64,000 nucleotides of DNA from Actinomycetes bacterium. Its GTDB lineage: Bacteria; Actinomycetota; Thermoleophilia; UBA2241. Location of the stretch: assembly GCA_029547745.1 (NCBI GenBank), contig JAKPOQ010000061.1, positions 18,399 through 82,398 on the forward strand, written 5' to 3'. Below the pieces are notes generated by a model. That model was not told the origin of the DNA. It saw only the letters and a list, made by a program, of their open reading frames with translations, and ran no database searches. The position numbers and the translations under genes were made by a program. This document shows positions 227 through 35,654 of this stretch, piece after piece (position 1 is the stretch's first letter; every line of letters starts with the position of its first letter).

Positions 227-353
227 ATGGCACGACCTCCTGTAGAAGAGCCTCAAGTGCTCGGCCCCCGCAGGGTTCGACGCGAGAGCCCACGTCCCTG
301 TGCGCGCGGACCCCCGCGCCCGTAGGCTCAGCGGGAGTCCCGGCACCTGAGTC

Positions 354-1712
354 TCAGGCGGCGCCGTGCACTCGCCGCCGCTCGACGCTGTTGATCGGCA
401 ACTCCAGCAGGCGCGAGATGGCCGCCTTGGCCTCGGCGGGGCTCGGGTCGAACGGACGGGGAGCCTCCCCGTCCGCGATCCGCCCGAGCCCCAGGTCGCC
501 GCGGACCTCCTGCATCGCGGCGCAGTCGGAGAGATCGCCCTCAGCGACGCCGAGCCTGTCGGCGACGTAGGCCTTGGCTTCCGCGAGCCGCATACCTCTG
601 GCCATCTGCAGGCGCGCTACCAGATCTCCGGAAGCGCGCATGCCACCCATCCCTGCGGCGACACCGTGTGCCACGGGCATGCCGAAGATGTCTCCCGTCC
701 CGACCTACAGGCCGTCCAGACGCAGGACCTCGACGGTCGCCTTCGACACCCTCGAGACCGCATCGACGGGCGGCACCATGGCCATCGGCACGCCACCGAC
801 CCCCATCCCCACGTTCATGTGGACGGGGATGCGTGCGCCGGCCACGCACGGCTTCACGAGCGTCAGGGCGCGACTCGTGTTCCAGGCGAGACTGCGGCCG
901 GTGTTGACGTTGACCGCCGGCCCATAGATGGTCGCGCCGGCCTGTTGGACGAGCTCCTGCTGTCCCGCCGGCCACCGGCCGGCGACGCGCATGCCGTGGA
1001 ACTCGAGCTCGCCGTGAGTCCCGAGCACGCGCTCCGCCGCCATGCCGACCATGATCCCCATGTCTGGGTGGCGGGAGCGCAGTGTCTCGACTGCGCGCAA
1101 CGTCGCCAGCAGGTCGGCGTCGCCGGCGGCGCCGGCGGTGTCGAAGTTGACGCCGTCGGCGCCCGCCTCCCAGAGCGCCTCGGCGACGTGCACCATGTCC
1201 GCCGTCGCCAGCTCCATGGCCTCTTCCTGAGCCGTGCGCGCCTCGTCGATGCGCAGCTCGGGCAGGAGCGTCGACCAGTTGCGGCACGGCCCGTCGGGCT
1301 CAGAGTACCGTCCGAGATCGGGCTGCGCCCCGTAGTGCACCGGGATCGTCAGGCGCTCCTGGGCCTCCTTCATGGCCGCTTGCTCGTGCGGGACGAGCGT
1401 CTTCACGGCTTTGTACGAGTAGTCCTGGTGAAAGAGCTCCAGACTGTCCGAGGCCAGACACTGCTCGTAGAGCAGCAGGCCTGCGATACGGTCGAACTGC
1501 GCCGCCCCCGTGCCGTCGAAGCTCAGCATGACCTCGTCGCCGATGTCGACCGCGGTGAAGCGCGCCGGCGAGGCGAAGATGGCAAGGAGATGGTCGAGCT
1601 CATCCGCGGCGAGCGGATCGACCTTGGCCCGGCGGACGGCCTCGTCGACCCCGCCTTCGAGTTCCGTCCTGATCTCGGATCGCGTCAGCTCGATGAGGGA
1701 GCCGTCGGCCAT
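354..1712 (-). CDS. mtbB: Dimethylamine:corrinoid methyltransferase homolog (MtbB / Dimeth_PyL family) with an in-frame TAG at 705-707, presumed pyrrolysine read-through
   Basis: ORFs 705..1796 and 354..680 are in the same frame and separated only by TAG (rc of cta at 705-707) plus 8 codons (VGTGDIFG). The combined protein is ~452 aa. It carries motifs recalled from methanogen MtbB: GADGVNFDTAGAAGD, NVGMGVGGVP, AGMGG..SGDLVARLQMA, INSV. The paralog at 5035..6422 has TAG at the identical position. RBS GAGGA sits 9 nt before ATG 1710-1712. A start at the upstream GTG (VEPRIPTRM..) is also possible. Confidence 0.7.
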
Positions 1713-1921
1713 GCGCGTCGGGATCCTCGGTTCCACGTGCCCCCTTTCGGCCTGAGGGCCGGGCGAAGGGACCGCCGGCCCACCCTGCGTCCGCAAGCAT
1801 CGTAGTCACTGCGCCGCGGCGGGAGCAACGGCGGATTCTTGGACGAACGTCACACCGGGGGCGCACGAAGTTGGCGCGCCGCCGGTCGCGCCCTACTAGC
1901 TGGCGCGCCGCCGGCCGCGCC

Positions 1922-2731
1922 CTACTCGAGGAGCAGTCGGTCGACCGCGAAGGCCTCACCGGCGACCTTGTGGAACATGTCGATGAGGTCGCTCACCTGC
2001 AGGGCCTCCTTCTCGGTCGGGCCGAGATCCAGCACCACGCGGCCCTCGTGCATCATGATCAGCCGCTCGCCGTAGCGCAGCGCCAGCTCCATGTTGTGGG
2101 TCACCATGAGCGTCGTGAGGCCCCGCTCCGAGACCATCTTCGCGGTGAGGTCCATGATGGTCGCCGCGACCTTGGGATCGAGCGCCGCCGTATGCTCGTC
2201 CAGAAGGAGGATGCTCGGCTCGGACTCCGTCGCCATGAGCAACGACATCGCCTGCCGTTGACCCCCGGAGAGCTTGTTGACCTGGGCCTTGAGACGATGC
2301 TCGAGGCCCATGCCGAGAGGCTCCAGATGCGTACGCATGAACTCGCGGCGCCGGTTTGTGACGCCGAGACGCAAGCCGCTGCGACGTTCGCGCATGAACG
2401 AGATCGCCAGGTTCTCTTCGATCGTCATGCTGGGAGCGGTCCCCGCCGTAGGGTCCTGGAAGACGCGACCGATCAGACGACTGCGCTGGAACTCGCGTTG
2501 CCGAGTGACGTCTACACCGTCCAGCAGGACACAGCCCGAGCTCACCGGGTACATGCCCGCGATCGTGTTGAGGAGCGTCGACTTGCCGGACCCGTTCGAC
2601 CCGATGATGCTGACGAACTGGCCCACAGGAACTTCGAGGTCGATGCCGTTCAGGGCCACGACCTCGTTGGCGGTGCCCGGGAAAAAGACCTTGCGCACCG
2701 CCTGCAGTTCCAGACTGGCGGGCCGGCTCAT
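1922..2731 (-). CDS. ABC transporter ATP-binding protein (COG1101-type; partner of the COG4120 permease and COG2984 binding protein)
   Basis: Walker A GSNGSGKST, signature LSGGQRQ, Walker B LLLDEHTAALD. The true start MSRPASLELQAV is at 2731 and overlaps the permease stop by 4 nt. The gene ends with TAG (1922-1924). Confidence 0.8.
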   Translation of the reverse strand: MSRPASLELQAVRKVFFPGTANEVVALNGIDLEVPVGQFVSIIGSNGSGKSTLLNTIAGMYPVSSGCVLLDGVDVTRQREFQRSRLIGRVFQDPTAGTAPSMTIEENLAISFMRERRSGLRLGVTNRRREFMRTHLEPLGMGLEHRLKAQVNKLSGGQRQAMSLLMATESEPSILLLDEHTAALDPKVAATIMDLTAKMVSERGLTTLMVTHNMELALRYGERLIMMHEGRVVLDLGPTEKEALQVSDLIDMFHKVAGEAFAVDRLLLE

Positions 2732-3636
2732 ATACGCACCACCTTCTTGCGGACCGTCGGGATCGACAGCGCGATCACGACGAGGACGGCGGTGAGGAGC
2801 TTGAGGTCCGTGGGCGCGATGCCTAGCCGCAGGCTCACGGCGATGAGCAGCCGATACACGATCGAGCCGCCGATCACGCTGAACAGCACCCAACTCACGC
2901 TGCGCTCACCGAAGAGCACCTCGCCCATGATGACGCCGGCCAGGCCGGCGACGATGGTGCCGATTCCCATGCCGACGTCGGCGAACCCCTGCTGCTGAGC
3001 TACCAGGGCGCCGGTGAGGGCGACGAGGGCGTTGGCGATGCCGAGGCCGACGATGCGGGTGAAGGCCGTGTTGGTGCCCATGGCGCGGATCATCTGCTCG
3101 TTGTCGCCCGTGGCCCGTAGACAGAGTCCGAACTCCGTGCGCAGAAACCAGTCGATGACGTACTTCACGATCACGGCGAGCGCAACAAGGGCGATGATGA
3201 GGTTCCACCCGCTCATCGCGACGCCGAACAGATCCTCGATCTGCTCGAACACGCCGTCCAGGCCGAGGAGCGGCGTATTGCTCTTGCCCATCACCCGCAG
3301 GTTAACGGTGTACAGGCCGGTCATGGTGAGGATGCCGGCCAGAAGCTTGGCGCCGTAGTTGGCGGCGGCGCTGCCGCTCGACCCCAAGCCGAGCAGCAAG
3401 TGCAGGATGCCGGTGACGAAGCCGGCGCAGAGCCCCGCCGCCACACCGGCCAGGGTCGCCGTCCACGGAGACTGCCCGCCGGAGATCATCGCCGCCGTCA
3501 CCGCAGCCCCCAACGGGAGACTGCCGTCCACAGTCAGGTCGGGGAAGTCCAGCACGCGGAAGGTGATGTACACGCCCAGCACCATGAAGCAGTACAGGAG
3601 GCCCTGCTCCAATCCGCTCGTGATGATCGCTTCCAC
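2728..3636 (-). CDS. ABC transporter permease (COG4120-like, multi-pass membrane)
   Basis: 302 aa hydrophobic protein with ~8 predicted TM segments, translationally coupled to the downstream ATPase. Confidence 0.8.
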   Translation of the reverse strand: MEAIITSGLEQGLLYCFMVLGVYITFRVLDFPDLTVDGSLPLGAAVTAAMISGGQSPWTATLAGVAAGLCAGFVTGILHLLLGLGSSGSAAANYGAKLLAGILTMTGLYTVNLRVMGKSNTPLLGLDGVFEQIEDLFGVAMSGWNLIIALVALAVIVKYVIDWFLRTEFGLCLRATGDNEQMIRAMGTNTAFTRIVGLGIANALVALTGALVAQQQGFADVGMGIGTIVAGLAGVIMGEVLFGERSVSWVLFSVIGGSIVYRLLIAVSLRLGIAPTDLKLLTAVLVVIALSIPTVRKKVVRI

Positions 3637-3659
3637 GTCAGATGGCTCCGAACATCCGT

Positions 3660-3693
3660 GACAGAGGCAGGGGCTTCAGCCCCTGCCTCTGTC
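3660..3693. other. Intra-operon perfect stem-loop (15-bp arms, loop TTCA) between the binding-protein and permease genes
   Basis: GACAGAGGCAGGGGC-ttca-GCCCCTGCCTCTGTC. No U-tract follows on the transcribed (minus) strand. This is a typical mRNA-stabilising hairpin after a binding-protein cistron. Confidence 0.45.
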
Positions 3694-3737
3694 GGTCGAT
3701 TACACCACGCGCCGCTGGTCACCCGACGCGGCGCCGG

Positions 3738-4754
3738 TCACTCTCCGAAAATATTGTCCGCCTTCGCGAGGACGTCCTCGGGCAGGGTGACGCCCATGGC
3801 CTTCGCCGAAGCGGGGTTGACGGACAGTTGCAGGGACTCAGCGAACTGCACCGGGATCTCGGCGATCGGCGTGCCGCTGAGGATCTCCGCCGCGATGTAC
3901 CCCGCCTGCACGCCCAGGTCCTTATAGTCGAACGCGTACGCCGCTGCAGAACCGCGCTTCACGCTGTCGGTGTCTCCCGAGATGAGCGGGATGTCGTTCT
4001 GCTGGCACACCTTGACGACGCTCTCGAGCGCGGACACCACGGTGTTGTCGGTGAGCACGGAGATCGCATCGACGCGGCCGACCAGGGAGTCGGCAGCCGC
4101 CTTGACCTCGGAGGAGTTGCTTGCCGTGGCCTCGACGACCTTCAGCCCCATGGCCGCCGCGGCCTTCTTCTCCTGCTCGACGGAGAACACCGAGTTAGCC
4201 TCGCCCGCGTTGTACAGCACACCGATCGTCTTGACGTCCGGCACGATCTGTTTGATGAGATCCAGGTGCGGCTTGACCGGCAGCATGTCGCTCACGCCCG
4301 TGACGTTGGCGCCCGGCGCCTCGGGGTCGTCGACGAGACCGGCGCCGACCGGGTCCGTGACGGCGGTGAACACGATCGGGGTCGTAGTGACGGCCTTGGC
4401 GACCGCCTGCGACGTGGGCGTCGCCACGCCCAGGATGAGGTCGAGATCCTCGCTGGCGAAAGCCTGGGCGATGCTCGAGGCCGTCGCCATGTCGCCCTCA
4501 GCGTTCTTGACTTCGTAGGTGACGTTGGTGAAGCCCTTCTCGGCCAGACCCTGCTTGAAACCCTCCACGGACGCATCGAGGGCGGGATGCGTGACGATCT
4601 GGGTGATGCCGATGGTATAGGCCTGAGCCTGTGGACTCGCGGAAGCGTCGCCGCCGTCGCCCTCGTCCGAGCCACTGCAGGCGACGAGGGAGAGAGACAG
4701 GGCCAGGACGGCGGCCAGCGCAGACAACGCGGCCAGGGTACGTGCACGACGCAT
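3738..4754 (-). CDS. ABC transporter substrate-binding lipoprotein (COG2984 / ABC_sub_bind family)
   Basis: Signal peptide with lipobox (LSLSLVAC) starting at MRRARTLAAL, followed by a periplasmic binding-protein-like fold. It is followed by a 15-bp-arm stem-loop. Confidence 0.75.
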   Translation of the reverse strand: MRRARTLAALSALAAVLALSLSLVACSGSDEGDGGDASASPQAQAYTIGITQIVTHPALDASVEGFKQGLAEKGFTNVTYEVKNAEGDMATASSIAQAFASEDLDLILGVATPTSQAVAKAVTTTPIVFTAVTDPVGAGLVDDPEAPGANVTGVSDMLPVKPHLDLIKQIVPDVKTIGVLYNAGEANSVFSVEQEKKAAAAMGLKVVEATASNSSEVKAAADSLVGRVDAISVLTDNTVVSALESVVKVCQQNDIPLISGDTDSVKRGSAAAYAFDYKDLGVQAGYIAAEILSGTPIAEIPVQFAESLQLSVNPASAKAMGVTLPEDVLAKADNIFGE

Positions 4755-4928
4755 CGTTCTCCTTTCGCTGAGAGGGTGTGTCATTCTACGTACGCGCCCC
4801 GGAGCACACAAGCCGCCTCCTCATCATTATGCACGTCATCCGCGTAGACCGGCCCACGAGTGAGGCACGGAGCAGGCCTCGCGGACGAGTTGATGCCGGT
4901 CTGTCGCATCCTCGGTCATCCGCGCGCA

Positions 4929-4968
4929 GGTCGGGCGGGGCGCCGCCACCGCGGCGCCCCGCCCGACC
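4929..4968. other. Perfect 18-bp-arm stem-loop between mtbB2 and the ABC binding-protein gene
   Basis: GGTCGGGCGGGGCGCCGC-cacc-GCGGCGCCCCGCCCGACC, located ~65 nt downstream of the TAG that ends mtbB2. Confidence 0.45.
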
Positions 4969-5034
4969 GTTCCGTCTTCTCGCATCCGGGCTCGTCGGGG
5001 GCGGACCTCCCGCCCGCCGCCGGCCCGTGCATGA

Positions 5035-6422
5035 CTATCGTTGCAGACCGACGCGGTCCTTGAAGCGCGCGACCGAGTTGATCGGCACGTCGAGCAGCTC
5101 ACTGATGTTGAACTTCGCCTCGATCATGCCGGGCTCGGCAGGATGGACTGCCGAGGTGCAGGCCAGCGTGCCGAGGCCGTGGTCGACCCGGATGGTCTCC
5201 ATGGCCACCGGGTCGGACAGATCGCGCACGGAGCAGCCGAGCTTGTCGGCCACGTAACGCTTCGCTTCACCGAGACGCATCCTGCGGGCCATCTGCATCC
5301 GGGCGACCAGGTCTCCGGCCGTCCGGTAACCGCCCATGCCCGCGGCGTGTGCGTGCGCGCCCTCCATGCCCTGGGCGTCGCCGGTACCCGCCTAGTAGCC
5401 GTCGATGCGCAGGATCTCGACGAACGCCTTCGCCGCCCGCGAGGTGGCGTCGGCCGGCGGGTAGGCGCAGGTCGGCACCCCGCCGACGCCCATGCCCACA
5501 TTAACGTGGATGGGGATCTCGGCGATCTCCATGCAGGGCTTGATGATGGTGATCGCGCGGGCGATGTTCCAAGCGGTCGACTTGCCCGTGTTGATGTTGA
5601 CGCAGGGCCCGAAGATGCTCGCTCCGGCCTGCTGCACGAGCTCCAACTGGGCCTTCGGCCAGAGGCCAGCGAGGCGCGTGCCGCGATGCGTGACCTGGCC
5701 GTGCATGCCGATCACGAACTCGCCCGCCATGCCGATCTCGATGCCGAGGTCGGGGTACTTGGCACGCAGCCGCTCGCAGGCCTCGAGGGCGGCGAGGAAG
5801 TCGCAGTCGCCGGCCGCCCCGGTCGTGTCCATGTCGATGCCGTCGGCGCCGGCCGCGACGAGGTGGTCGGCGACGAACTCGATGTCGTCGACGAGCACCG
5901 CCGCGGCCTCTTCCTGCGAGCGGCGCGCCTCGTCGATCTTCCCCAGGGGGAGCAGCTCGGACCAGTTGGGGAACGGCCCGTCGGGGGCCGAGTAACGTCC
6001 CAGGTCGGGCATCGCCCCGTACTGCACCGGGTTCGTGACGAGCAGTTGGGCCATCTTCATCCACTGGGCTTCGTGGTGGACGTTCGTCTTGACGGCCTTG
6101 TAGGAGTAGTCGGTCTGCCAGAGTTCGACGATGTCGACGCCGACCACCTGCTCGTAGGTCTGCAGGTCGGCGCCGACGCTGCCCACATACTTGGTGCCGG
6201 TGCCGTCGTTGCTGAGCACGACCTCGTCGCCGATGTCGACGGCGGCGAAGCGCGCCGGCGAGGCGTAGATGTCGAGCAGATGGTCGAGCTCGTCTTGGGT
6301 GAGCTCCGCGACCTTCGCCTTCTTGGCCGCGATCTGCGTGCCCTCTTCGAGATCGGCCTTGATCTCGGAGCGCGTCATCTCGACGAGCGCGCCGTCACCC
6401 ATTCGCGTCGGGATCTTGGGTT
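5035..6422 (-). CDS. mtbB: Second dimethylamine methyltransferase homolog (MtbB family) with an in-frame TAG at 5392-5394, presumed pyrrolysine read-through; it also terminates with TAG
   Basis: ORFs 5392..6630 and 5035..5367 are in the same frame (6630-5367=1263) and separated by TAG (rc of cta at 5392-5394) plus 8 codons (AGTGDAQG). It is a paralog of 354..1712; the post-TAG octapeptide has conserved amino acids but differs at synonymous sites. RBS GGAGGTG lies before ATG 6420-6422 (MLLEPKIPTRMGDG..). The N-terminal extension in the ORF track (MSFAS..) is unlikely to be real. Confidence 0.7.
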
Positions 6423-6642
6423 CCAACAGCATCACCTCCAGCACGTCGTCGGGACCGGAGTCAGGACGGTAGCCTACCGTACCCGTCGTCACCGGCGCCA
6501 CCGGGTCTGCGGCAGCCCCAGCAGACGATACTGCGGCACCCTGGCGAGGCCCGCGCCTCGGGCTCTCTTGATGGTCCGCACAGTGCCAGCCAGCCGCACC
6601 CTGGCCGCGCCTCGTCGAGGCGAAGGACAAGGCACAGCCTGC

Positions 6643-6718
6643 TGGAGCCGGCGGGCGGGCTCGAACCGCCGACCTGCCGCTTACAAGGCGGCTGCTCTGC
6701 CAACTGAGCTACGCCGGC
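6643..6718 (-). tRNA. tRNA-Thr (anticodon UGU)
   Basis: The reverse complement folds as a canonical cloverleaf: acceptor GCCGGCG/CGCCGGC, D-arm GCTC-AGTTGGCA-GAGC, anticodon stem GCCGC/GCGGC with loop CTTGTAA, T-arm GGCGG-TTCGAGC-CCGCC, discriminator T, CCA encoded. Confidence 0.88.
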
Positions 6719-6733
6719 TCACGCCCGAGAAGT

Positions 6734-6775
6734 CTATCCGCTTTCCGCCCTTCGCTATCCGCTTTCCGTCCTTCG
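6734..6775. repeat. Tandem direct repeat 2 x 21 nt (CTATCCGCTTTCCG[C/T]CCTTCG) just upstream of the tRNA-Thr 5' end
   Basis: Two adjacent copies with a single mismatch. Confidence 0.7.
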
Positions 6776-7262
6776 CCGAACAGGAACACTGCGCCCGGCG
6801 GCCGCGGCATCATGTCCGCGGCGCCCATGTCCTTCGGGCCCGAGGGTGTGGCCCTGAACCGCTCCGCGCAGTGCGAGCCTGGTGTCTGGACCGGCAAGGA
6901 GATCCATCGGAAGAGAGAGTGGGTGGGAGCGGCCAGAGGGCCCGCGGGCGAAAGAGAGAGGCGCCCGGGGCTGGCAAGGGCCGCCTACTGCGGCCGGCCC
7001 CGGCCGCGGACATCGGTCCGCCCGGGGCCGGGGCGGACCAGAAGATAGGAGGCGCCGGCGCTGGACGCCGGCAGCGCGCTTCTTGGAGATGGGAAGCGTC
7101 CCAGACCGACCGTAGGACCGACGTGAGAGCACGACATCAGCGGAAGATCACGCCGTTTGAAGCGAGAGGAGCGTCGACCCTGCCCATGGTGATGCGGTCT
7201 GGTGAGCTTCGACTTCGATCTGGCGCCCCGTCACCCCGCCCACACGACCGCCCGAACGCGAA

Positions 7263-24101: not shown

Positions 24102-24953
24102 TCAGGCCGGCGGGGACGCGGCGTCGCCGCAGGCGGACGCCGCGTCCCCGCCGGCGAGATCGTCGAGCAGCGCGCTGACCTCAGCCCAGACGCTGTCACG
24201 GTGCGCCTTCAACTCCTGGTCGTCCTCGGCCCGCGTCTGCTTCTCGGCCTTGACGAGGAGGACGCCCGCCTCGGCGAGCACCCCGAGGATGCTCACCACG
24301 GTGATCTCCTCGAGCGACGTCGCCGCGGTGATCTCACGGACTGTACGGTGATCATCGACCTGGGCGAGCACGTAGAACTCGTCCCGCCCCATGGAGAGGG
24401 AGTGCCGTGGCAGGGTGTCGTAGTCGCGGTTGCGGACAAGGACCGTGTTGGCCTGTCCGAGGACCTCGACCGCAAGACAGTAGTCGCCGCCCAGCGAGGA
24501 GATGTCCATCAGCACGGCATGCGTGTCGATGGTGACGAAGTCGACGGGCCTCGCAGCCTTGTCGGCGACGAACACGAAGCTCCCGGCCGTCTCGACCTTG
24601 ACCGCCACGAGGGTGTTCGCGACCTGGCGTGACAGCACCTCGCGCAGGTCGCGCTCGTGCAGGTGTCCGCGCTCGACCAGAAGGGTGCCCAGCGGCCGCG
24701 GGCTGCGTTCCTGTACGGCGAGGGTCTCCTTGAGCTGAGCCTCGTTCACGAGGGCCCGCTTGAGCAACTGGCTGCCGAGGACGGAATCGGTGAAGACGCG
24801 CGTCGAGTCGCGCGTCTCGGCGATGCGGCCGCCGACGAAGTGGACGTCGACCTGGCGGTTGGGACACTCGATGTGCAGCGTCCCCGAGCTTCTCGTCCTG
24901 GCGAGCATCTGCAGGATCTCGACGACGCTGAAGGTGTCAAGCGTGCCCTGCAT
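24102..24953 (-). CDS. DUF4388 domain protein
   Basis: N-terminal MQGTLDTFSVVEILQMLARTRSSGTLHIE.. is the DUF4388 signature. The start was moved to the second Met to avoid a 12-nt overlap with the divergent PHP gene. Confidence 0.55.
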   Translation of the reverse strand: MQGTLDTFSVVEILQMLARTRSSGTLHIECPNRQVDVHFVGGRIAETRDSTRVFTDSVLGSQLLKRALVNEAQLKETLAVQERSPRPLGTLLVERGHLHERDLREVLSRQVANTLVAVKVETAGSFVFVADKAARPVDFVTIDTHAVLMDISSLGGDYCLAVEVLGQANTVLVRNRDYDTLPRHSLSMGRDEFYVLAQVDDHRTVREITAATSLEEITVVSILGVLAEAGVLLVKAEKQTRAEDDQELKAHRDSVWAEVSALLDDLAGGDAASACGDAASPPA

Positions 24954-24971
24954 GAGTGGGCGAAGTGTATA

Positions 24972-25632
24972 CTCGCCCGGCATGAACGTCGACCTTCACA
25001 CGCACACCTACCCCGCGTCGACGTGCTCTCGGATCACCTACCGCGACTACATCGCGTGGTGCACGGCACAGCAGGTCGAAGCCGTCGCCCTGACCAACCA
25101 CGGGGACGTGACCGACAACCGCAAGCTTGAGCACGCCCTCGCCGCCGAGGGCGTGCTCCTCATCCACGGTGTCGAGGTCTCGACCATGCTCGGCGACCTC
25201 GTCGTGCTCTCGCCCGACCTCGACTACCTGGCGACGTTCAAGGACGTGCAGGAGGCTCCGCGCCCCGGCAGCGTGGCCGCCGACGCCGCCGTCGTTTGGG
25301 TGCACCCCGCCGCGGGTGGGGGACGCAGCGGGTCTTCGTACTATCCCGGCCTGGAGCGACTCGCCGGTCCCATCATCGACGCTGTCGAGGTGTACAACGG
25401 CTCGTGGCTCGACGACCGCTTCGTCCGCACCGCCGAACAGATCGCCGACCAGCTCGGCGTGGCGCGCACCGGCGGCAGCGACGCCCACGAGCCCGACGGT
25501 CTGATGACGTGCTTCACCGAGTTCCCGGACCCGATCCGTTCGACCGCCGACGTCGTCGACGCCCTCAAGCGCCGCGTCACCGTCCCGCACCGCGGCGCGG
25601 TCAAGGCACGACGCCGGTTCGGGCTGTTCTGA
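24972..25632 (+). CDS. PHP-domain (polymerase/histidinol-phosphatase-like) metal-dependent phosphoesterase
   Basis: MNVDLHTHTYPAS.. HG.E.. GSDAHEP motifs. Confidence 0.7.
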
Positions 25633-30851: not shown

Positions 30852-32738
30852 CTACTCCTCGCCTTGCCTGCGCCCCCTACCCGTCTGTCCCTCAAGACTG
30901 GTCTGCACAAGCTTGAGCGACTGCAGGTACAGATAGTTCTTGGGGCGGCGCACGATGCGGCTCTCGGACAGGGCGGCGACGAAGTCCTTCGCCCCGGTGA
31001 ACTCGTCCATGCCCGTCAAGGCCGTCCCCAAGCTGGCGAGGACGTGGGCGTCGCTGCCCGCCGCCGCCGGGACGCGGTAGCGGCGGGCGAACCGCTCCGC
31101 TTGCTCGTTGAACCCGGGGAACGCGAGCCGCGAGTTGAAGACCTCGAGGACGTCGATGTCGGTGACGTTGGCGCGCAGCAGGGCAGCGCTGGGCACCGTG
31201 TGGAGACGGTCGAACGGATGAGGCACATAGACGATGCCGCCCTGCTCCTTGATGGCCGCGACCGTGTCGGCGAACGTCATCCCCGGCGGGACGGCGCGCT
31301 CGAGGAAGAGGCCGATCACCTCGCCCTCCGCGGATTTCACCTCCTCGCCGACGACGACGCGCACGCCATAGCGGTCGCCGAGCTCACGCGCCTCGAGACC
31401 GCCGGCGATGGAGTCGTGATCGGTGATGGCGACGACGTCGAGACCGACCTCGCGCGCGCGCTCCAGGATGTCCTCCACGGTCGAGACGCAGTCCTTGCTG
31501 TGGTGCGAATGCACGTGGAAGTCGCCGAAGACCTCGCTTTGCCGGCGGCGGCGGCGCCCTGCGGCGCGCCGCCGCCGCGCGACCTCGTCGTAGAGCTCCT
31601 CGTGCTGATCGACGACCCTTCCCCAGTCGAAGCGCGCGGCCGTGCGCACGCCCGCAGCCGCGAGCCGCTCGCGCGTCTGCGGCTCGCGCACCATCGTGCG
31701 CAGGGCGGCGGCCAGCGCCGCGGCGTCGCGGACCGGGACGAGCAACCCCTCGTGACCGTCGCCGACCGCCTCCCGATGTCCAGGGACGTCGCTCGCGATG
31801 ATCGCCGTCCCCGCCGCCATCGCTTCAAGGAGGACGAAGCCGGCGGACTCCGGACCGAGCGAGGGTGCGCAGAGGACGTCGGCATCCCGCAGAACCTCCT
31901 CCATGGCGTCGCGCGACAGGCGGCCGTGGAAGGTCACGCGCTCGGCGAGCGCGCCGGGGACGCGGTGGCCGAACCGGCTCTCTTGAGCGTCGTGGCCGCA
32001 GACGTGAAGTTCGAGCTCCTCGGCCACATCGTCGAGACGGCGGAGCGCGCGAAGCAGCAGGCCCAGTCCCTGACGTCGCGACTGGCTGGCGGCGAACACC
32101 ACGCGAACCGGTCCGGGACGACGCGCCGCGGGCGGCCGCAACGCGCCGACGTCCACGCCGGGAGGGATGATCCGGTAGGCGCCGGGGAACTCGCGCGCAG
32201 TGGCGTCACGGACCGTCGCGCAACCGGCGACGGCGACGTCCAGCGAGTCGAACAGGCGCTGCTGGCGCGAGCGCGGCATCAGGTCCTGGACGAACCTCTC
32301 GTCCTCGCTGAGGAACGTGGCCACGAGCGGACAGGCGGTGTGCCTCAGGGCCGCCCAGCCCACCGACGGCGCGAACGGCTCGTAGAGGTGCAGGACATCG
32401 AGGTCGTCGGCCTCGAGGAGGACGTCGATGTTGGCGATGAGGTCGGCAGGGGCGGTGAACACGGGACGCGGCCGTCGGGAGTCGACGTACGTGCGGCCGG
32501 CGAAGAAGTAGCGCGGCGAGGCCTCGTCGGGCAAGAACACGGTCTCGCGCTCCCCCAGCAACACCGCCTGCACCCTCGCCCGCGCCTCGCGTACCGCGGC
32601 CCTGTCGGCACTGGGGGCGATGACGGTCACGCGGTGGCCACGGTCAGCCAGACGCTGCGCGAGTCCCGCGACCTGGTCGTTCACCTCGCTCGGCGTCGTC
32701 CACGGGTACGGGGTGAGAAGTCCGATGCTGTGACCCAC
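30852..32738 (-). CDS. Fusion protein: N-terminal PimA-like GT4 (phosphatidylinositol alpha-mannosyltransferase) + C-terminal PHP phosphoesterase domain
   Basis: Residues 1-~390 align along their length with mycobacterial PimA (IGLLTPYPW.., LDVLHLYEP, LVATF, GPESAGFVLLEAMAAGTAIIASDVPG..GLLVP). Residues ~420-628 form a PHP domain (FGDFHVHSHHS.., ITDHD, VPHPFD, GSDAH). Confidence 0.75.
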   Translation of the reverse strand: MGHSIGLLTPYPWTTPSEVNDQVAGLAQRLADRGHRVTVIAPSADRAAVREARARVQAVLLGERETVFLPDEASPRYFFAGRTYVDSRRPRPVFTAPADLIANIDVLLEADDLDVLHLYEPFAPSVGWAALRHTACPLVATFLSEDERFVQDLMPRSRQQRLFDSLDVAVAGCATVRDATAREFPGAYRIIPPGVDVGALRPPAARRPGPVRVVFAASQSRRQGLGLLLRALRRLDDVAEELELHVCGHDAQESRFGHRVPGALAERVTFHGRLSRDAMEEVLRDADVLCAPSLGPESAGFVLLEAMAAGTAIIASDVPGHREAVGDGHEGLLVPVRDAAALAAALRTMVREPQTRERLAAAGVRTAARFDWGRVVDQHEELYDEVARRRRAAGRRRRRQSEVFGDFHVHSHHSKDCVSTVEDILERAREVGLDVVAITDHDSIAGGLEARELGDRYGVRVVVGEEVKSAEGEVIGLFLERAVPPGMTFADTVAAIKEQGGIVYVPHPFDRLHTVPSAALLRANVTDIDVLEVFNSRLAFPGFNEQAERFARRYRVPAAAGSDAHVLASLGTALTGMDEFTGAKDFVAALSESRIVRRPKNYLYLQSLKLVQTSLEGQTGRGRRQGEE

Positions 32739-32900: not shown

Positions 32901-34091
32901 TCAGCCCTGGCACACGGCGGTCGCGCCGCGTCCCTCGCCGGCGATGAACTCCTCGGTCAGGCGACGGCACTCGTCGTCCGGATGCTGGACCGGCGGCGAC
33001 TTCATGAAGTACGAGCTCGGTCCCTCGAGCGAGCCGCTCATGCCGCGGTCGAGGGCGATCTTCGCGCAGCGCACGGCGTCGATGACGATGCCGGCCGAGT
33101 TGGGCGAGTCGACCACCTCGAGCTTGAGCTCGATGTTGAGAGGCACGTCGCCGAACGTGCGGCCCTCCATGCGGATATAGGCCCACTTGCGGTCTTCGAG
33201 CCACTCGACGTAGTCGCTGGGACCGATGTGGACGTTCTTCGCGCCCATGTCGTAGTCGAGCTGGCTGGTGACGGCGTTGGTCTTGGAGATCTTCTTCGAC
33301 TCGAGCCGTTCGCGTTCGAGCATGTTCAGGAAGTCGGTGTTGCCGCCGACGTTGAGCTGGCTCGTCCGCTCGAGGCGTACGCCGCGCTCGCGCATGAGGC
33401 GCGTCAGCACGCGATGGACGATGGTCGCCCCGACCTGGCTCTTGATGTCGTCGCCGATGATCGGCACGCCGGCCTCGGTGAACCGGCGCTGCCAGTACGC
33501 CTCGCGGGAGATGAACACGGGGATGCAGTTCACCATGGCGCAGCCGGCGGTGAGGATCTGCTCCGTGTACCACTTCGTCGCCTCTTCGCTGCCCACCGGC
33601 AAGTAGTTGACGACGACGTCCGTCTGCGTGTCCTTGAGGATGCCGACGATGTCGTCGGTCTTGCCGGGAGCCTTCTCGATGATCTGCGAGAGGTACTTGC
33701 CGAGACCGTCGTGGGTCATCCCGCGAGCGACCGTCACCCCCGTCGCCGGCACGTCGCAGAAGCGCGTCGTGCAGTTCGGCTTCGTGTAGATCGCTTCGGC
33801 AAGGTCCTTGCCCACCTTGTTCTTGTCGATGTCGATCGCAGCGACGAACTCGATATCTTTGACGTGGTAACCCCCGACCACGGGGTGCATGAGCCCCGGC
33901 ACGAAGTCGGACTTCTTCGCGTTCTTGTAGAACTCGACGCCTTGTACGAACGACGAGGCGCAGTTCCCGACGCCGATGATCGCGACGCGTACTGGATTGG
34001 CCAAGGTCGGTCTACCTCCACGGGGGCCGGCGGCCTGCCGGCCGGTCAGGTCCACACGCCGCGGTCCCGACGTGCCGAAGACCGGGCGCAA
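32901..34091 (-). CDS. ino1: myo-Inositol-1-phosphate synthase (actinobacterial/archaeal short type)
   Basis: [25 protein letters not shown]-binding start, LxSxT.. catalytic region. ~370 aa from the plausible start. Confidence 0.85.
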
Positions 34092-34171
34092 AAATCGCGG
34101 GCGAGTATATCACGGGCCGCCGGCCGGCCCGGCCGCAGGTGGCCTCACCGGCCGCCCCGGCCACAGGCGAC

Positions 34172-34807
34172 TCAGGTCGACGAAGACTGCTCGCGTTCCG
34201 CAGCCCGGAGACGACTCATGACGTAGGTCAGCCGGCGGACCACCGTGAGCGGCGTCAGGACGGCGATGGCGAGGAGCATCAGCGTGAGGACGCTCACGCC
34301 GAACGGCTCGAAGCCGGCGAACGCGAAGCCGACGAGCAGGGCGACCAGGCGCTCGGGACGCGACATGAACCCTACCGTGCAGTCGGTCCCGAGCGCCTCG
34401 GCCCGGGCCCGGGTGTACGAGACCATCAGCGCCGACCCGAGGCACACGAGCGTTGCGACGAACTCCCACATCCGGCCGCCGTCAGCCATGGCGTAAGCGA
34501 GAGCGCCGAAGACGATGATCTCGGAGATGCGGTCGAGGGTGGAATCGAGGAAGGCGCCGGAACGCGTCGGCCCGCGGCCGGCGCGCGCCACGGCGCCGTC
34601 CATCCCGTCGCAGGCCGCCGCGACGCCGAACGCGACCGCCGTCCAGAAGAAGTGCCCCTCGACGATGAGCCACCCGGCGACCACGCTGAGGGCGAGACCC
34701 GCCGCCGTCAGCATGTTCGCGCTGACGCCCATGTGCGAAAGGACCACGCCGAGCCGGTAGAACCCCCGTCGGGCACCGTTCGTATACGCCGTCTTGATGC
34801 CGGCCAT
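34172..34807 (-). CDS. CDP-alcohol phosphatidyltransferase (phosphatidylinositol-phosphate synthase-like, PgsA1/Pips family)
   Basis: D-G..AR....(S/T)..G..LD...D motif (CDGMDGAVARA..GAFLDSTLDRISE). Membrane protein adjacent to ino1. Confidence 0.75.
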   Translation of the reverse strand: MAGIKTAYTNGARRGFYRLGVVLSHMGVSANMLTAAGLALSVVAGWLIVEGHFFWTAVAFGVAAACDGMDGAVARAGRGPTRSGAFLDSTLDRISEIIVFGALAYAMADGGRMWEFVATLVCLGSALMVSYTRARAEALGTDCTVGFMSRPERLVALLVGFAFAGFEPFGVSVLTLMLLAIAVLTPLTVVRRLTYVMSRLRAAEREQSSST

Positions 34808-34859
34808 GCAGCCTCACCCGTCGCCGTCGGCGAGCCACACCGGCACCCCGGCAAGCCGC

Positions 34860-35654
34860 CTATAACTCGTAATCACGGATGGTCAGGATGCGTTCGCGCT
34901 GGATCTCGGCGGCCGGCATGCGCACCGCCACCACCCAAGCCACGAGGACGGCCACGCCACCCATGACGGCGTCAAGGATGAAGTGGTTGCCGGTGACGAC
35001 GATGGCGAGGAAGCACACGGTCGGATAGATGAAGGCCGCGCGACGCAGCCACAGCGGCCGGACGAGCATGTACAGGCACAGGGCGACGAACAACGCATAG
35101 GCGAAATGCAGGCTGGGCATTGCCGCGTACGGGTTGGCGAAGATGCTCGGCGCCGTCGCGAAGGCCACGTCGTCCCGGTACAGATACGCCATGTCGACCA
35201 CACCCGACCACGACAACATCCGTGGCGGCGCCGTCGGCACGAGCGTGTACCCGATGAGGCCGATGAGGTTGAGCGAGAGAAACCAGTTGCGGAACAGCGG
35301 CCACACGTCGCGGTGGCGCATGAACACCCACGAAAGACAGACGACGATCACCGGCAGATGGACCTCCTGGTAGAACCAGATCATGGCCTGCATGAGGGGT
35401 TCAAAGCCGCTGAACCGGGCCTGGAGCCAGGGCTCGACGTAGATGCCGAGGGCGCGTTCGGCGCGCACCACGGCGTCGGCGTTCGCGAAGGCCGCGTCCT
35501 CCTGTCCCTGCGCGACGGCGCGCGTGATGCGGTACAGGTAGTACAGCGCGTACATGATGGAGAACTGGACGAGGACGTCGCGACCGCCCCGCGGAGCGGT
35601 CGCGGCCATGAAGTCGCGCGCCAGACGCCGCACACCGGTCCACACACGTGTCAT
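34860..35654 (-). CDS. PAP2-superfamily membrane protein (PAP2_C / Aur1-like inositol-phosphotransferase or lipid phosphatase)
   Basis: Polytopic protein with PSLHFAYAL and GNHFILDAV motifs matching the acid-phosphatase motifs 2-3. Confidence 0.55.
   Translation of the reverse strand: MTRVWTGVRRLARDFMAATAPRGGRDVLVQFSIMYALYYLYRITRAVAQGQEDAAFANADAVVRAERALGIYVEPWLQARFSGFEPLMQAMIWFYQEVHLPVIVVCLSWVFMRHRDVWPLFRNWFLSLNLIGLIGYTLVPTAPPRMLSWSGVVDMAYLYRDDVAFATAPSIFANPYAAMPSLHFAYALFVALCLYMLVRPLWLRRAAFIYPTVCFLAIVVTGNHFILDAVMGGVAVLVAWVVAVRMPAAEIQRERILTIRDYEL

What the first reader, a model, noticed from the sequence alone, without database searches (positions are those of the whole stretch)
354..6718. Methylamine-utilisation island candidate: mtbB2 - ABC importer (COG2984/4120/1101) - mtbB1 on one strand, directly 3' of tRNA-Thr
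All five genes are co-directional with short gaps and are separated by two unusually long perfect hairpins (3660-3693, 4929-4968). The cluster begins 75 nt... more precisely, mtbB2's start at 6422 lies ~220 nt from the 3' end of tRNA-Thr(UGU) at 6643, and 3' of a tRNA is the classic insertion point for acquired DNA. The binding-protein-dependent ABC system of this type has no assigned substrate; sandwiched between two dimethylamine methyltransferases it is a candidate methylamine importer. No corrinoid protein (MtbC), MtbA/MtaA-like methylcobamide:acceptor methyltransferase, RamA activator or pyl genes are inside the window. They must be elsewhere, possibly beyond position 1 where a partial gene continues.
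Basis: inference. Interest (0 to 1): 0.7.

Follow-up and report, generated by a model that had tools for sequence, protein, structure and literature searches.

The report
Pyrrolysine-dependent dimethylamine operon, not an island
An uncultured high-GC soil/digester bacterium (class Thermoleophilia) carries two dimethylamine methyltransferase genes, each needing the rare 22nd amino acid pyrrolysine, on either side of a nutrient importer; the cluster is real, but it is an old, inherited part of the chromosome, not a recently acquired island.

Summary
tRNA-Thr(UGU), two mtbB genes, a COG2984-type ABC importer and two long perfect hairpins lie at the stated coordinates on the minus strand.

The key feature is an in-frame TAG in each mtbB (705-707 and 5392-5394), at the pyrrolysine codon of methanogen mtbB. 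It is conserved in 133 of 134 copies from relatives, and the coding sequence continues beyond it.

- surE-HAD-ligA-tRNA-Thr-mtbB-ABC is syntenic in about 20 species-level Thermoleophilia MAGs at 60-80% protein identity.
- There is no repeat of the tRNA 3' end, no integrase and no compositional anomaly.

The partners are not in the window, nor within 7.3 kb beyond position 1. Relatives encode them at an unlinked, conserved locus: pylSc, pylSn, pylT, pylD, pylC, pylB and a corrinoid protein, all above curated cut-offs. Three MAGs carry both that locus and a TAG-containing mtbB. This was not shown for the window's own genome.

The binding-protein family does have assigned substrates (Tyr, Phe, Trp). 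The mtbB-linked copies have a clade-specific acidic motif, GD(T/P)DS, at the specificity position. Methylamine import is therefore plausible but untested.

Pyl-encoding mtbB in Actinobacteriota is already published, so this is a new member of a known kind.

The parts
6643..6718 (-). tRNA-Thr(UGU), conserved neighbour of the cluster
   Evidence: ARAGORN and Rfam RF00005, 69.3 bits. The same tRNA lies between ligA and mtbB in about 30 related loci.
5035..6426 (-). The likely start is TTG 6426, 8 nt after GGAGG. It ends in TAG at 5035-5037.
   Evidence: PF09505 542 bits across profile positions 4-462 of 463. TIGR02368 415 bits against a cut-off of 369.1. The start context was read. Orthologues in relatives are 75-92% identical.
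5392..5394 (-). In-frame TAG (predicted pyrrolysine codon) of the upstream mtbB, in the context ...RIDGY-TAG-AGTGD...
   Evidence: Aligned to positions 1-3 (UAG) of Rfam PYLIS_2. TAG is present at this codon in 133 of 134 homologous copies.
5295..5394 (-). Match to Rfam PYLIS_2 (RF02509), mostly coding-sequence conservation
   Evidence: 46.8 bits against a gathering score of 36. Several helix-1 pairs are marked non-canonical here. Across 111 copies most helix-1 pairs are only 13-58% canonical, while helix 2 is 88-100% apart from one pair at 54%.
4929..4968 (.). Perfect hairpin with an 18-bp stem between the upstream mtbB and the binding-protein gene. Probably an attenuator or a stabilising 3' stem-loop.
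   Evidence: About -47.7 kcal/mol, and comparable hairpins (stems of 13 bp or more) sit at the same position in 9 of 15 relatives. No U-tract follows.
3738..4754 (-). ABC substrate-binding lipoprotein (COG2984/PF04392, TrpX/CD0873/VC_1101 family). It has a lipobox (LVAC) and a clade-specific GDTDS motif.
   Evidence: PF04392 310 bits. 3LKV E = 2e-73, 6HNI 6e-66, 3LFT 3e-55. NF041285 TrpX 284 bits, below the 390 cut-off. The motif is conserved in 19 orthologues.
3660..3693 (.). Perfect hairpin with a 16-bp stem between the binding-protein and permease genes
   Evidence: About -32.9 kcal/mol, and stems of 14 bp or more sit at the same position in 12 of 15 relatives, with different sequences.
2728..3636 (-). 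ABC permease (COG4120, PF02653)
   Evidence: The identical protein is encoded on 23 public contigs. Orthologues are 76-81% identical.
1922..2731 (-). ABC ATPase (COG1101, PF00005). Its start overlaps the permease stop by 4 nt, and it ends in TAG.
354..1736 (-). Starts at GTG 1736 and ends at TGA 354-356.
   Evidence: PF09505 521 bits. TIGR02368 410.6 bits against 369.1. Paralogue identity.
705..707 (-). In-frame TAG (predicted pyrrolysine codon) of the downstream mtbB, in the context ...RLDGL-TAG-VGTGD...
608..707 (-). Match to Rfam PYLIS_2 (RF02509)
   Evidence: 63.4 bits. The structural support is weak.

Best explanation
What it is
This is a chromosomal, vertically inherited methylamine-utilisation operon of an uncultured Thermoleophilia (Actinomycetota) bacterium.

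How it works
- Two paralogous MtbB enzymes would transfer a methyl group from dimethylamine to the Co(I) form of a corrinoid protein.
- Each mtbB mRNA carries an in-frame UAG that must be translated as pyrrolysine by Pyl-tRNA(CUA).
- The tRNA, its two-subunit synthetase (PylSn and PylSc), the PylBCD biosynthesis genes, the MtbC-like corrinoid protein and a RACo-type reductive activator are encoded at other loci.
- UAG is not reassigned genome-wide. 18% of window genes still end in TAG, so decoding is ambiguous or conditional, as in other Pyl bacteria.
- The ABC importer between the two mtbB genes most likely supplies the amine substrate or a precursor of it.
- The conserved GC-rich hairpins after the upstream mtbB and after the binding-protein gene most likely act as partial terminators or 3' stabilisers that set the ratio of the cistrons.

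What is shown
- Gene identities.
- The homologous and conserved position of the TAG.
- Synteny across relatives.
- Presence of the Pyl cassette, corrinoid protein and activator in the lineage, and in three MAGs that also carry a TAG-containing mtbB.

What is inferred
- That this genome has the cassette.
- That the substrate is dimethylamine.
- The importer's ligand.
- The role of the hairpins.
- The methyl acceptor downstream of the corrinoid protein.
For: Gene identity
- Both MtbB match the family models across the TAG and exceed the NCBIfam equivalog cut-off.

The TAG codon
- It aligns to the UAG that opens Rfam PYLIS_2.
- 133 of 134 copies in 74 related loci keep TAG.
- No in-frame stop occurs in the next 32 codons of 111 distinct copies, and many of those residues are more than 95% conserved.
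- Nearly all of the 120 best of 1715 database homologues are about 344-aa fragments that end at this codon.

Lineage
- The relatives are almost all Thermoleophilia MAGs.
- The window has the actinobacterial pknB-pbpA-rodA-pstP-fhaB-fhaA block.

Synteny

Pyl machinery in the lineage
- The M. mazei PylRS seed matched at 100%. A representative search followed, then 2878 PylSc relatives, some named '[Thermoleophilia bacterium]'.
- The locus order is amidase-pylSc-(corrinoid)-(radical SAM)-pylSn-Germane-pylT-pylD-pylC-pylB.
- tRNA-Pyl(CUA) was found in 5 of 6 loci.
- NCBIfam scores against cut-offs: PylSc 301/178, PylSn 123/51, PylD 199/150, PylC 309.5/248, PylB 426/348, corrinoid TIGR02370 225/215.

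Same-MAG links
- JAAZAR (L072 and L089), JBAZPK (L025 and L091), and JADGPQ (L010, which has mtbB-SBP-permease-ATPase, and L092).

Other partners near mtbB in relatives
- Corrinoid proteins, Pyl-type and non-Pyl MttB, and a RACo activator.

Expression
- Actinobacteriota MAGs, including genus Bog-752, express Pyl-encoding mtbB (PMC10805028). bog_752 is locus L019.
Against: - The pyl genes, corrinoid protein and activator were not located in the window's own MAG (GCA_035374325.1 / GCA_035419265.1). Only 64 kb plus 7.3 kb could be read.
- No methylcobamide:THF (MtbA/MtqA/MtgA-like) methyltransferase was identified anywhere in the lineage here.
- The binding protein is about 47% identical (my count from the alignment) to a phenylalanine-binding protein, and it keeps the family's conserved motifs. 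That fits an amino-acid-like ligand better than free dimethylamine.
- The ABC cassette is missing between the two mtbB genes in several relatives: L018-L021, L026, L027, L059 and L068. It is therefore not obligatory for mtbB function.
- The hairpins lack U-tracts.
- No biochemical data exist for any bacterial MtbB.
Confidence: 0.78

Rival explanations
1. One reading: the cluster 354-6640 is a recently acquired genomic island that integrated at the 3' end of tRNA-Thr.
For: - The cluster begins 216 nt 3' of tRNA-Thr.
- Across relatives the stretch between the tRNA and the upstream mtbB varies from 0.2 to 2.7 kb and holds different small genes, such as a SASA esterase or a GYD protein. The site does tolerate small insertions.
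- The ABC region is 2-3% lower in GC than its flanks.
Against: - The same order, ligA-tRNA-Thr-mtbB-ABC, occurs in about 20 species-level MAGs. Divergence is similar to that of the housekeeping genes: LigA 66-78%, permease 76-81%, upstream MtbB 75-92%.
- Both flanks (ligA side, and GGDEF plus DeoC side) are syntenic with L018 and L020.
- There is no repeat of 13 nt or more of the tRNA 3' half, and no integrase.
- The tetranucleotide distance lies within the window's normal range.
Confidence: 0.05
2. The ABC system is an ordinary aromatic or other amino-acid importer (TrpX/CD0873-like). It has no functional connection to dimethylamine metabolism, and its position between the mtbB genes is historical accident.
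For: - All three solved homologues bind Tyr, Phe or Trp (PMC6816091).
- It is about 47% identical to VC_1101, and the family motifs HPALDA, ATPT.QA, TDPVGA, NVTGVSD and DNT are all retained.
- The cassette is absent from the same position in several relatives.
Against: - It scores below the TrpX equivalog cut-off (284 against 390).
- No T-box or other Rfam leader is present.
- An invariant Asp sits at the side-chain specificity position (Ala in the Phe and Trp binders, Glu in the Tyr binder), with a second Asp two residues on. This holds in all 19 mtbB-linked orthologues and in three metagenome fragments, but not in a 42%-identical homologue from an unrelated context.
- The cassette is always directly 3' of an mtbB when present.
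- From my own knowledge, Methanosarcina methylamine operons also embed their presumed permeases (mttP, mtbP).
Confidence: 0.3
3. The mtbB genes are pseudogenes, or are made only as truncated N-terminal fragments, and the TAGs are true stops.
For: - TAG is a normal terminator for 8 of 45 window genes.
- The NCBI records list no gene call at the mtbB positions.
- Pyl genes were not demonstrated in this genome.
Against: - TAG is conserved at exactly one codon in 133 of 134 copies.
- The 110-aa region after it is conserved, stop-free and in frame, and matches the C-terminal part of the family models.
- A complete Pyl cassette is present in the lineage, including in MAGs that carry these genes.
Confidence: 0.03

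Closest known systems
Methanosarcina mtbB1/2/3 and their mtbC-mtbB(-mtbP) operons (Paul, Ferguson & Krzycki 2000, cited in PMC10805028)
   Same: - The enzyme family is the same (TIGR02368 equivalog, PF09505).
- A single in-frame UAG sits at the homologous codon.
- Each genome has several paralogues.
- A transporter gene is embedded among the methyltransferase genes.
   Different: - The host is a bacterium with 68% GC.
- No corrinoid gene is adjacent in this organism.
- The transporter is a binding-protein-dependent ABC system, not a single permease.
- The methyl acceptor is presumably tetrahydrofolate, not coenzyme M (inferred).
- The first helix of the Rfam PYLIS_2 model is not maintained.
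Bacterial Pyl systems with split PylS (Desulfitobacterium hafniense, Acetohalobium arabaticum, Bilophila)
   Same: - Relatives have split pylSn and pylSc, with pylT and pylBCD, all above the NCBIfam cut-offs.
- UAG is kept as an ordinary stop elsewhere.
   Different: - The phylum is Actinomycetota. Two recent Pyl reviews do not mention it.
- The cassette is dispersed over about 6 kb and interleaved with unrelated genes (amidase, Germane-domain protein, radical SAM protein).
- The cassette is not linked to the mtbB operon described here.
Actinobacteriota MAGs of Stordalen Mire (genera Bog-752, RBG-16-64-13; PMC10805028)
   Same: - They belong to the same lineage: bog_752 and palsa_647 are among the related loci (L019, L031, L034, L044).
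- They were reported to express Pyl-encoding mttB and mtbB.
   Different: - In the passages read, that paper inferred Pyl from gene truncation only. Those passages do not mention the pyl cassette, the ligA-tRNA-Thr synteny or the ABC importer.
TrpXYZ / CD0873 / VC_1101 / SP1069 aromatic amino-acid ABC importers (PF04392; PDB 6HNI, 3LKV, 3LFT)
   Same: - The binding-protein fold family and the three-gene architecture (COG2984/4120/1101) are the same.
- The lipoprotein anchor is the same.
- The conserved family motifs are retained.
   Different: - It scores below the TrpX equivalog cut-off.
- Asp replaces Ala or Glu at the specificity position, and a second Asp follows (GD[T/P]DS).
- No T-box leader is present.
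- It is embedded between Pyl-type mtbB genes.

Membership tests
MtbB, Pyl-dependent [dimethylamine--corrinoid protein] Co-methyltransferase (TIGR02368 / PF09505) | Full-length match above the curated equivalog cut-off | tested here: met
   415 and 410.6 bits against 369.1. Pfam 542 and 521 bits over about 458 of 463 profile positions.
MtbB, Pyl-dependent [dimethylamine--corrinoid protein] Co-methyltransferase (TIGR02368 / PF09505) | Single in-frame UAG at the conserved Pyl position, with the coding sequence continuing | tested here: met
   TAG at 705-707 and 5392-5394 aligns to the UAG at positions 1-3 of RF02509. It is conserved in 133 of 134 copies, and the downstream 32 codons are stop-free and conserved.
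MtbB, Pyl-dependent [dimethylamine--corrinoid protein] Co-methyltransferase (TIGR02368 / PF09505) | pylT, pylS and pylBCD present in the same genome | not testable with these tools
   They are absent from the window and from 7.3 kb beyond it. They are present in relatives, including three MAGs that also hold a TAG-containing mtbB. The rest of this MAG could not be read.
MtbB, Pyl-dependent [dimethylamine--corrinoid protein] Co-methyltransferase (TIGR02368 / PF09505) | Cognate corrinoid protein (MtbC-like) and a reductive activator | tested here: inconclusive
   None is in the window. In relatives, corrinoid proteins lie near mtbB and beside pylSc (TIGR02370 225 bits against 215), and a RACo-type activator lies in L042.
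MtbB, Pyl-dependent [dimethylamine--corrinoid protein] Co-methyltransferase (TIGR02368 / PF09505) | Methylation of the corrinoid protein by dimethylamine | not testable with these tools
   This needs biochemistry. No MtbB structure exists in the PDB by sequence search.
PYLIS_2 cis-element (Rfam RF02509) | Score above the gathering threshold | tested here: met
   63.4 and 46.8 bits against 36.
PYLIS_2 cis-element (Rfam RF02509) | The model's base pairs are maintained | tested here: inconclusive
   In 111 copies, 7 of the 11 helix-1 pairs are canonical in only 13-58% of copies. Helix 2 is 88-100% canonical apart from one pair at 54%, with CG, GC and TG at one pair. Overall pairing is 70%, against 34-41% when the partners are shifted, but much of that is invariant coding sequence.
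tRNA-associated genomic island | Direct repeat of the tRNA 3' end at the far boundary | tested here: not met
   There is no match of 13 nt or more to tRNA positions 40-76 in the cluster or in the 7.3 kb beyond it. The only longer hit matches the 5' half, on the opposite strand, about 5 kb outside the window.
tRNA-associated genomic island | Integrase or other mobility genes | tested here: not met
   None appeared in Pfam scans of the cluster and both flanks.
tRNA-associated genomic island | Composition that differs from the host genome | tested here: not met
   GC is 0.68 against about 0.69. Tetranucleotide distance is +1.0 to +1.8 sd, lower than for the dnaK region.
tRNA-associated genomic island | Patchy presence among relatives, with an empty site in some | tested here: not met
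   The arrangement is syntenic in about 20 species-level MAGs. Only the internal ABC cassette and small genes next to the tRNA vary.
TrpX-type tryptophan/aromatic amino-acid ABC binding protein (NF041285; PF04392) | Domain family and fold relatives | tested here: met
   PF04392 310 bits. 3LKV, 6HNI and 3LFT match with E = 2e-73 to 3e-55.
TrpX-type tryptophan/aromatic amino-acid ABC binding protein (NF041285; PF04392) | Equivalog score cut-off | tested here: not met
   284.2 bits against a cut-off of 390.
TrpX-type tryptophan/aromatic amino-acid ABC binding protein (NF041285; PF04392) | Specificity residues (VC_1101 Ala246 / CD0873 Glu263, and Tyr262 / Tyr279 / Gln284) | tested here: not met
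   The first position is Asp and the second is Tyr. Asp is invariant in the mtbB-linked orthologues (residue roles from PMC6816091).
TrpX-type tryptophan/aromatic amino-acid ABC binding protein (NF041285; PF04392) | T-box leader | tested here: not met
   No Rfam match at E of 0.01 or below in 300-6800, other than the tRNA and PYLIS_2.
Canonical intrinsic terminator | GC-rich stem followed by a U-tract | tested here: not met
   The stems are present, but neither hairpin was picked up by the terminator scan, because no T-run follows.

The most novel reading that the evidence does not exclude
The mtbB-linked ABC system, whose binding protein belongs to the aromatic amino-acid family but carries an invariant acidic GD(T/P)DS pocket motif, may be the first binding-protein-dependent importer for dimethylamine. 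Alternatively it may import a larger dimethylamino compound, such as a dimethylated amino acid or an aromatic amine. In that case at least one of the Thermoleophilia Pyl-MtbB paralogues would act on a substrate other than free dimethylamine.
Probability: 0.2. Interest if true: 0.65.

Novelty: new member of a known kind. Interest (0 to 1): 0.4.

Why it matters
Pyrrolysine is usually presented as a trait of methanogens plus a few Firmicutes and Deltaproteobacteria. Two recent reviews checked here do not mention Actinomycetota.

This locus and its relatives show that a widespread, uncultured soil, peat and digester lineage of Thermoleophilia carries several Pyl-type mtbB and mttB genes and a complete pylT/Sn/Sc/B/C/D cassette. 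The searches found 548 or more mtbB relatives in species genomes and 2878 PylSc relatives in the protein collection.

Such bacteria would compete with methylotrophic methanogens for methylamines, and so would affect methane budgets. This agrees with the expression data from Stordalen Mire.

The conserved link to a TrpX-family ABC importer with an altered pocket gives a concrete, testable candidate for methylamine uptake, for which no binding-protein-dependent system has been characterised.

For annotation: the NCBI records list no gene at either mtbB position, and the other gene callers split each into two ORFs.

Tried and rejected
Pyl genes near mtbB
- I looked for pyl genes in the window and in 74 mtbB-anchored loci, using phmmer with M. 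mazei PylRS and ARAGORN. Nothing was found. The cassette is unlinked to mtbB.

Reaching the lineage's PylS
- A word-indexed protein search with the M. mazei PylRS catalytic domain returned only Methanosarcina.
- It took an exhaustive representative search, followed by picking a sequence with high-GC composition.

Locating PylSc in the window's own MAG
- Nine look-ups all landed in other MAGs: P0408, P0391, P0407, P0507, P0413, P0429, P0403, P0531 and P0552.
- One cluster listing did not help either. This question stays unresolved.

Testing the mtbB linkage from the binding-protein side
- A metagenome scan anchored on the binding protein returned only 4 short loci, so the test has no power.

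Binding-site residues
- I looked for the residues that bind the amino-acid backbone in two papers. Only the two side-chain specificity positions are given in the text.

Rejected readings
- The Rfam PYLIS_2 hits are not evidence for an RNA structure, because helix 1 is not maintained.
- No remnant of a third mtbB lies between ligA and tRNA-Thr, although many relatives have one there. tblastn of the window finds none.
- TAG is neither depleted as a stop nor backed up by a nearby second stop.

Full report
**What is in the sequence**

The window has about 68% GC. On the minus strand, from high to low coordinates, lie:
- tRNA-Thr(UGU), 6643-6718;
- an mtbB gene, 6426-5035;
- a perfect 18-bp hairpin, 4929-4968;
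- a lipoprotein ABC substrate-binding protein, 4754-3738;
- a perfect 16-bp hairpin, 3660-3693;
- a permease, 3636-2728;
- an ATPase, 2731-1922, whose start overlaps the permease stop;
- a second mtbB, 1736-354.

Both MtbB proteins match Pfam PF09505 over almost the whole profile (542 and 521 bits). Both exceed the NCBIfam equivalog cut-off for dimethylamine methyltransferase (415 and 410.6 bits against 369.1).

**The in-frame TAG**

Each mtbB is interrupted by one in-frame TAG (5392-5394 and 705-707).
- Rfam's PYLIS_2 model is built on methanogen mtbB and begins with the pyrrolysine UAG. It aligns its first three positions to exactly these codons.
- Of the 120 best of 1715 homologues in the protein collection, nearly all are about 344-residue fragments that stop at the same residue.
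- In 74 related genomic loci, 133 of 134 mtbB copies have TAG at this codon.
- The next 32 codons contain no stop in 111 distinct copies, and many of their residues are more than 95% conserved.

These are therefore pyrrolysine-type genes, not pseudogenes.

The PYLIS_2 hit itself is mostly coding-sequence conservation. Most pairs of the model's first helix are canonical in only 13-58% of copies. The short second helix is kept.

**Whose genome it is**

The rest of the window is housekeeping: ligA, surE, clpB, dnaJ-grpE-dnaK, topA, holB, serS and the actinobacterial pknB-pbpA-rodA-pstP-fhaB-fhaA block. The identical permease is encoded on 23 public contigs, including MAGs GCA_035374325.1 and GCA_035419265.1. 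A scan of species-representative genomes found at least 548 mtbB relatives. The best 80 come almost entirely from uncultured Thermoleophilia MAGs, including bog_752, palsa_647 and UBA2241.

**Island or not**

- The order surE-HAD-ligA ... tRNA-Thr(UGU) ... mtbB-binding protein-permease-ATPase recurs in about 20 species-level MAGs.
- Protein identities to the window are LigA 66-78%, permease 76-81%, ATPase 72-79%, binding protein 61-78% and upstream MtbB 75-92%. The cluster has diverged to a similar degree as its housekeeping neighbours.
- The far flank (a GGDEF protein and a DeoC aldolase) is also syntenic with L018 and L020.
- No repeat of 13 nt or more of the tRNA's 3' half exists. There is no integrase. 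Tetranucleotide distance is +1.0 to +1.8 sd, less deviant than the dnaK region.

Three things do vary among relatives:
- a third mtbB between ligA and the tRNA, absent here with no remnant;
- 0.2-2.7 kb of small genes just 3' of the tRNA;
- the ABC cassette itself, which is present between the two mtbB genes in the window, L007 and L016 but absent in eight other loci.

**Where the partners are**

None is in the window. The 7.3 kb beyond position 1 encode unrelated proteins.

To ask whether the lineage can decode UAG at all, I seeded a search with the M. mazei PylRS catalytic domain. I recalled that sequence from memory, and it was confirmed as a 100% match. An exhaustive representative search followed. 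From it I picked a PylSc of high-GC composition (P0255) and searched again. That gave 2878 relatives, some named 'pyrrolysine--tRNA(Pyl) ligase large subunit [Thermoleophilia bacterium]'.

Their contigs show a conserved locus: amidase-pylSc-(corrinoid protein)-(radical SAM)-pylSn-Germane protein-pylT-pylD-pylC-pylB. ARAGORN calls tRNA-Pyl(CUA) in five of six loci. Every component exceeds its NCBIfam cut-off.

Three MAGs hold both this locus and a TAG-containing mtbB: JAAZAR, JBAZPK and JADGPQ. JADGPQ also has the mtbB-ABC arrangement. Corrinoid proteins, Pyl-type and non-Pyl MttB, and a RACo-type reductive activator lie near mtbB in other relatives.

I could not find the cassette in the window's own MAG. 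Nine look-ups landed elsewhere. That step is inferred from the lineage. A methylcobamide:tetrahydrofolate methyltransferase was not identified.

**UAG usage**

TAG still terminates 8 of 45 window genes (18%), including the ABC ATPase and the upstream mtbB itself. There is no nearby back-up stop: the median distance to the next in-frame stop is 49.5 codons, against 50 for TGA genes. UAG is therefore ambiguous or conditionally decoded, as described for other Pyl organisms.

**The importer**

The claim that this transporter type has no assigned substrate is outdated. The binding protein matches 3LKV, 6HNI and 3LFT with E = 2e-73 to 3e-55, and these bind Phe, Tyr and Trp (PMC6816091). TrpX is a tryptophan uptake protein (PMC9382623).

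The window protein keeps the family's conserved motifs but falls below the TrpX equivalog cut-off (284 against 390). At the position that selects the ligand side chain (Ala in the Phe and Trp binders, Glu in the Tyr binder) it has Asp, followed two residues later by a second Asp.
- GD(T/P)DS is invariant in all 19 mtbB-linked orthologues and in three metagenome fragments.
- It is absent from a 42%-identical homologue in an unrelated context.

When present, the cassette always sits directly after an mtbB, but those loci were found by anchoring on mtbB. A scan anchored on the binding protein returned too little to test the link.

My reading is that the cassette imports the amine substrate or a related cationic compound, at roughly 50%, with about 20% of that being the more novel variants. 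An unrelated amino-acid importer stands at roughly 30%.

**The hairpins**

Both are far beyond chance. Long GC-rich hairpins with different sequences occupy the same two intergenic positions in 9 of 15 and 12 of 15 relatives. They lack U-tracts. I infer, without a test, that they are partial terminators or protective 3' stem-loops that raise the yield of the upstream mtbB and the binding protein relative to the membrane components.

**Comparison with what is known**

The enzymes are members of the MtbB family. The Pyl cassette in relatives is the bacterial split-PylS type. A 2023 study of Stordalen Mire already reported Actinobacteriota MAGs, including genus Bog-752, that express Pyl-encoding mttB and mtbB (PMC10805028). 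Two recent Pyl reviews do not mention the phylum.

This is a new member of a known kind. What this analysis adds is the conserved chromosomal context, the unlinked pyl locus, and a candidate importer with an altered pocket.

**Verdict**

Interest is moderate.

Noticed in passing
window 1922-1924, 5035-5037 and six other gene ends: TAG is an ordinary terminator for 8 of 45 window genes (18%), including the ABC ATPase and the upstream mtbB itself. The next in-frame stop is a median 49.5 codons away, the same as for TGA genes. There is thus no sign of UAG avoidance or back-up stops in a presumed Pyl decoder.
   Followed up: yes
window about 6734-6768 (minus strand), just 5' of tRNA-Thr: A 14-nt direct repeat, CGGAAAGCGGATAG, occurs twice 21 nt apart, immediately upstream of the tRNA-Thr gene. 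It may belong to the tRNA promoter region.
   Followed up: no
L001 18971-18996 (about 5.3 kb beyond window position 1): A 26-nt, 92% match to the 5' half of tRNA-Thr lies on the opposite strand. It is probably another tRNA gene or a fragment. It is not an att-type repeat, because it matches the 5' part and not the 3' part.
   Followed up: partly
window 30852-32738 (-), with 32901-35654: A GT4 glycosyltransferase is fused to a PHP phosphoesterase domain. It sits next to inositol-1-phosphate synthase, a CDP-alcohol phosphatidyltransferase and a PAP2 protein. A second stand-alone PHP protein lies at 24760-25632.
   Followed up: no
L007, L009, L012, L013, L017, L023, L045, L058, L066, L068, L069: Many relatives carry a third mtbB between ligA and tRNA-Thr, so mtbB genes flank the tRNA on both sides. 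The window has only 544 bp there and no remnant.
   Followed up: yes
L018-L021, L026, L027, L059, L068 compared with window, L007, L016: The ABC cassette between the two mtbB genes is present in some species and absent in others. Among the species that lack it is the relative closest by LigA and SurE identity (L020).
   Followed up: partly
L042 16788-19930: A RACo-type corrinoid reductive activator (Fer2 plus RACo domains) sits next to a lysine-2,3-aminomutase-like radical SAM protein, inside a cluster of MttB-family genes and an mtbB.
   Followed up: partly
L012 16053-18272 (-), similar in L013: One ORF joins a B12-binding_2 domain to an APC-family amino-acid permease. It is either a real fusion or an ORF-calling artefact across a frameshift.
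   Followed up: no
P0119 (protein collection, Logan assemblies): This full-length, 468-aa MtbB homologue (50% identity) has Gln where the others have the TAG codon. It is either a non-Pyl MtbB or a translation made with a different code.
   Followed up: no
L081-L093 (pyl loci of relatives): The Thermoleophilia pylT is nearly invariant: 73 nt, with 0-1 differences among five MAGs. The pyl genes are interleaved with an amidase, a Germane/Gmad2 protein and a small radical SAM protein, in a conserved TldD/PmbA-OsmC-BacA neighbourhood.
   Followed up: partly
L002, L003 (NCBI records of the window's contig): The gene lists for the NCBI records contain no gene at either mtbB position. The ENA gene calls split each mtbB into two ORFs. 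Standard annotation therefore hides these genes.
   Followed up: partly
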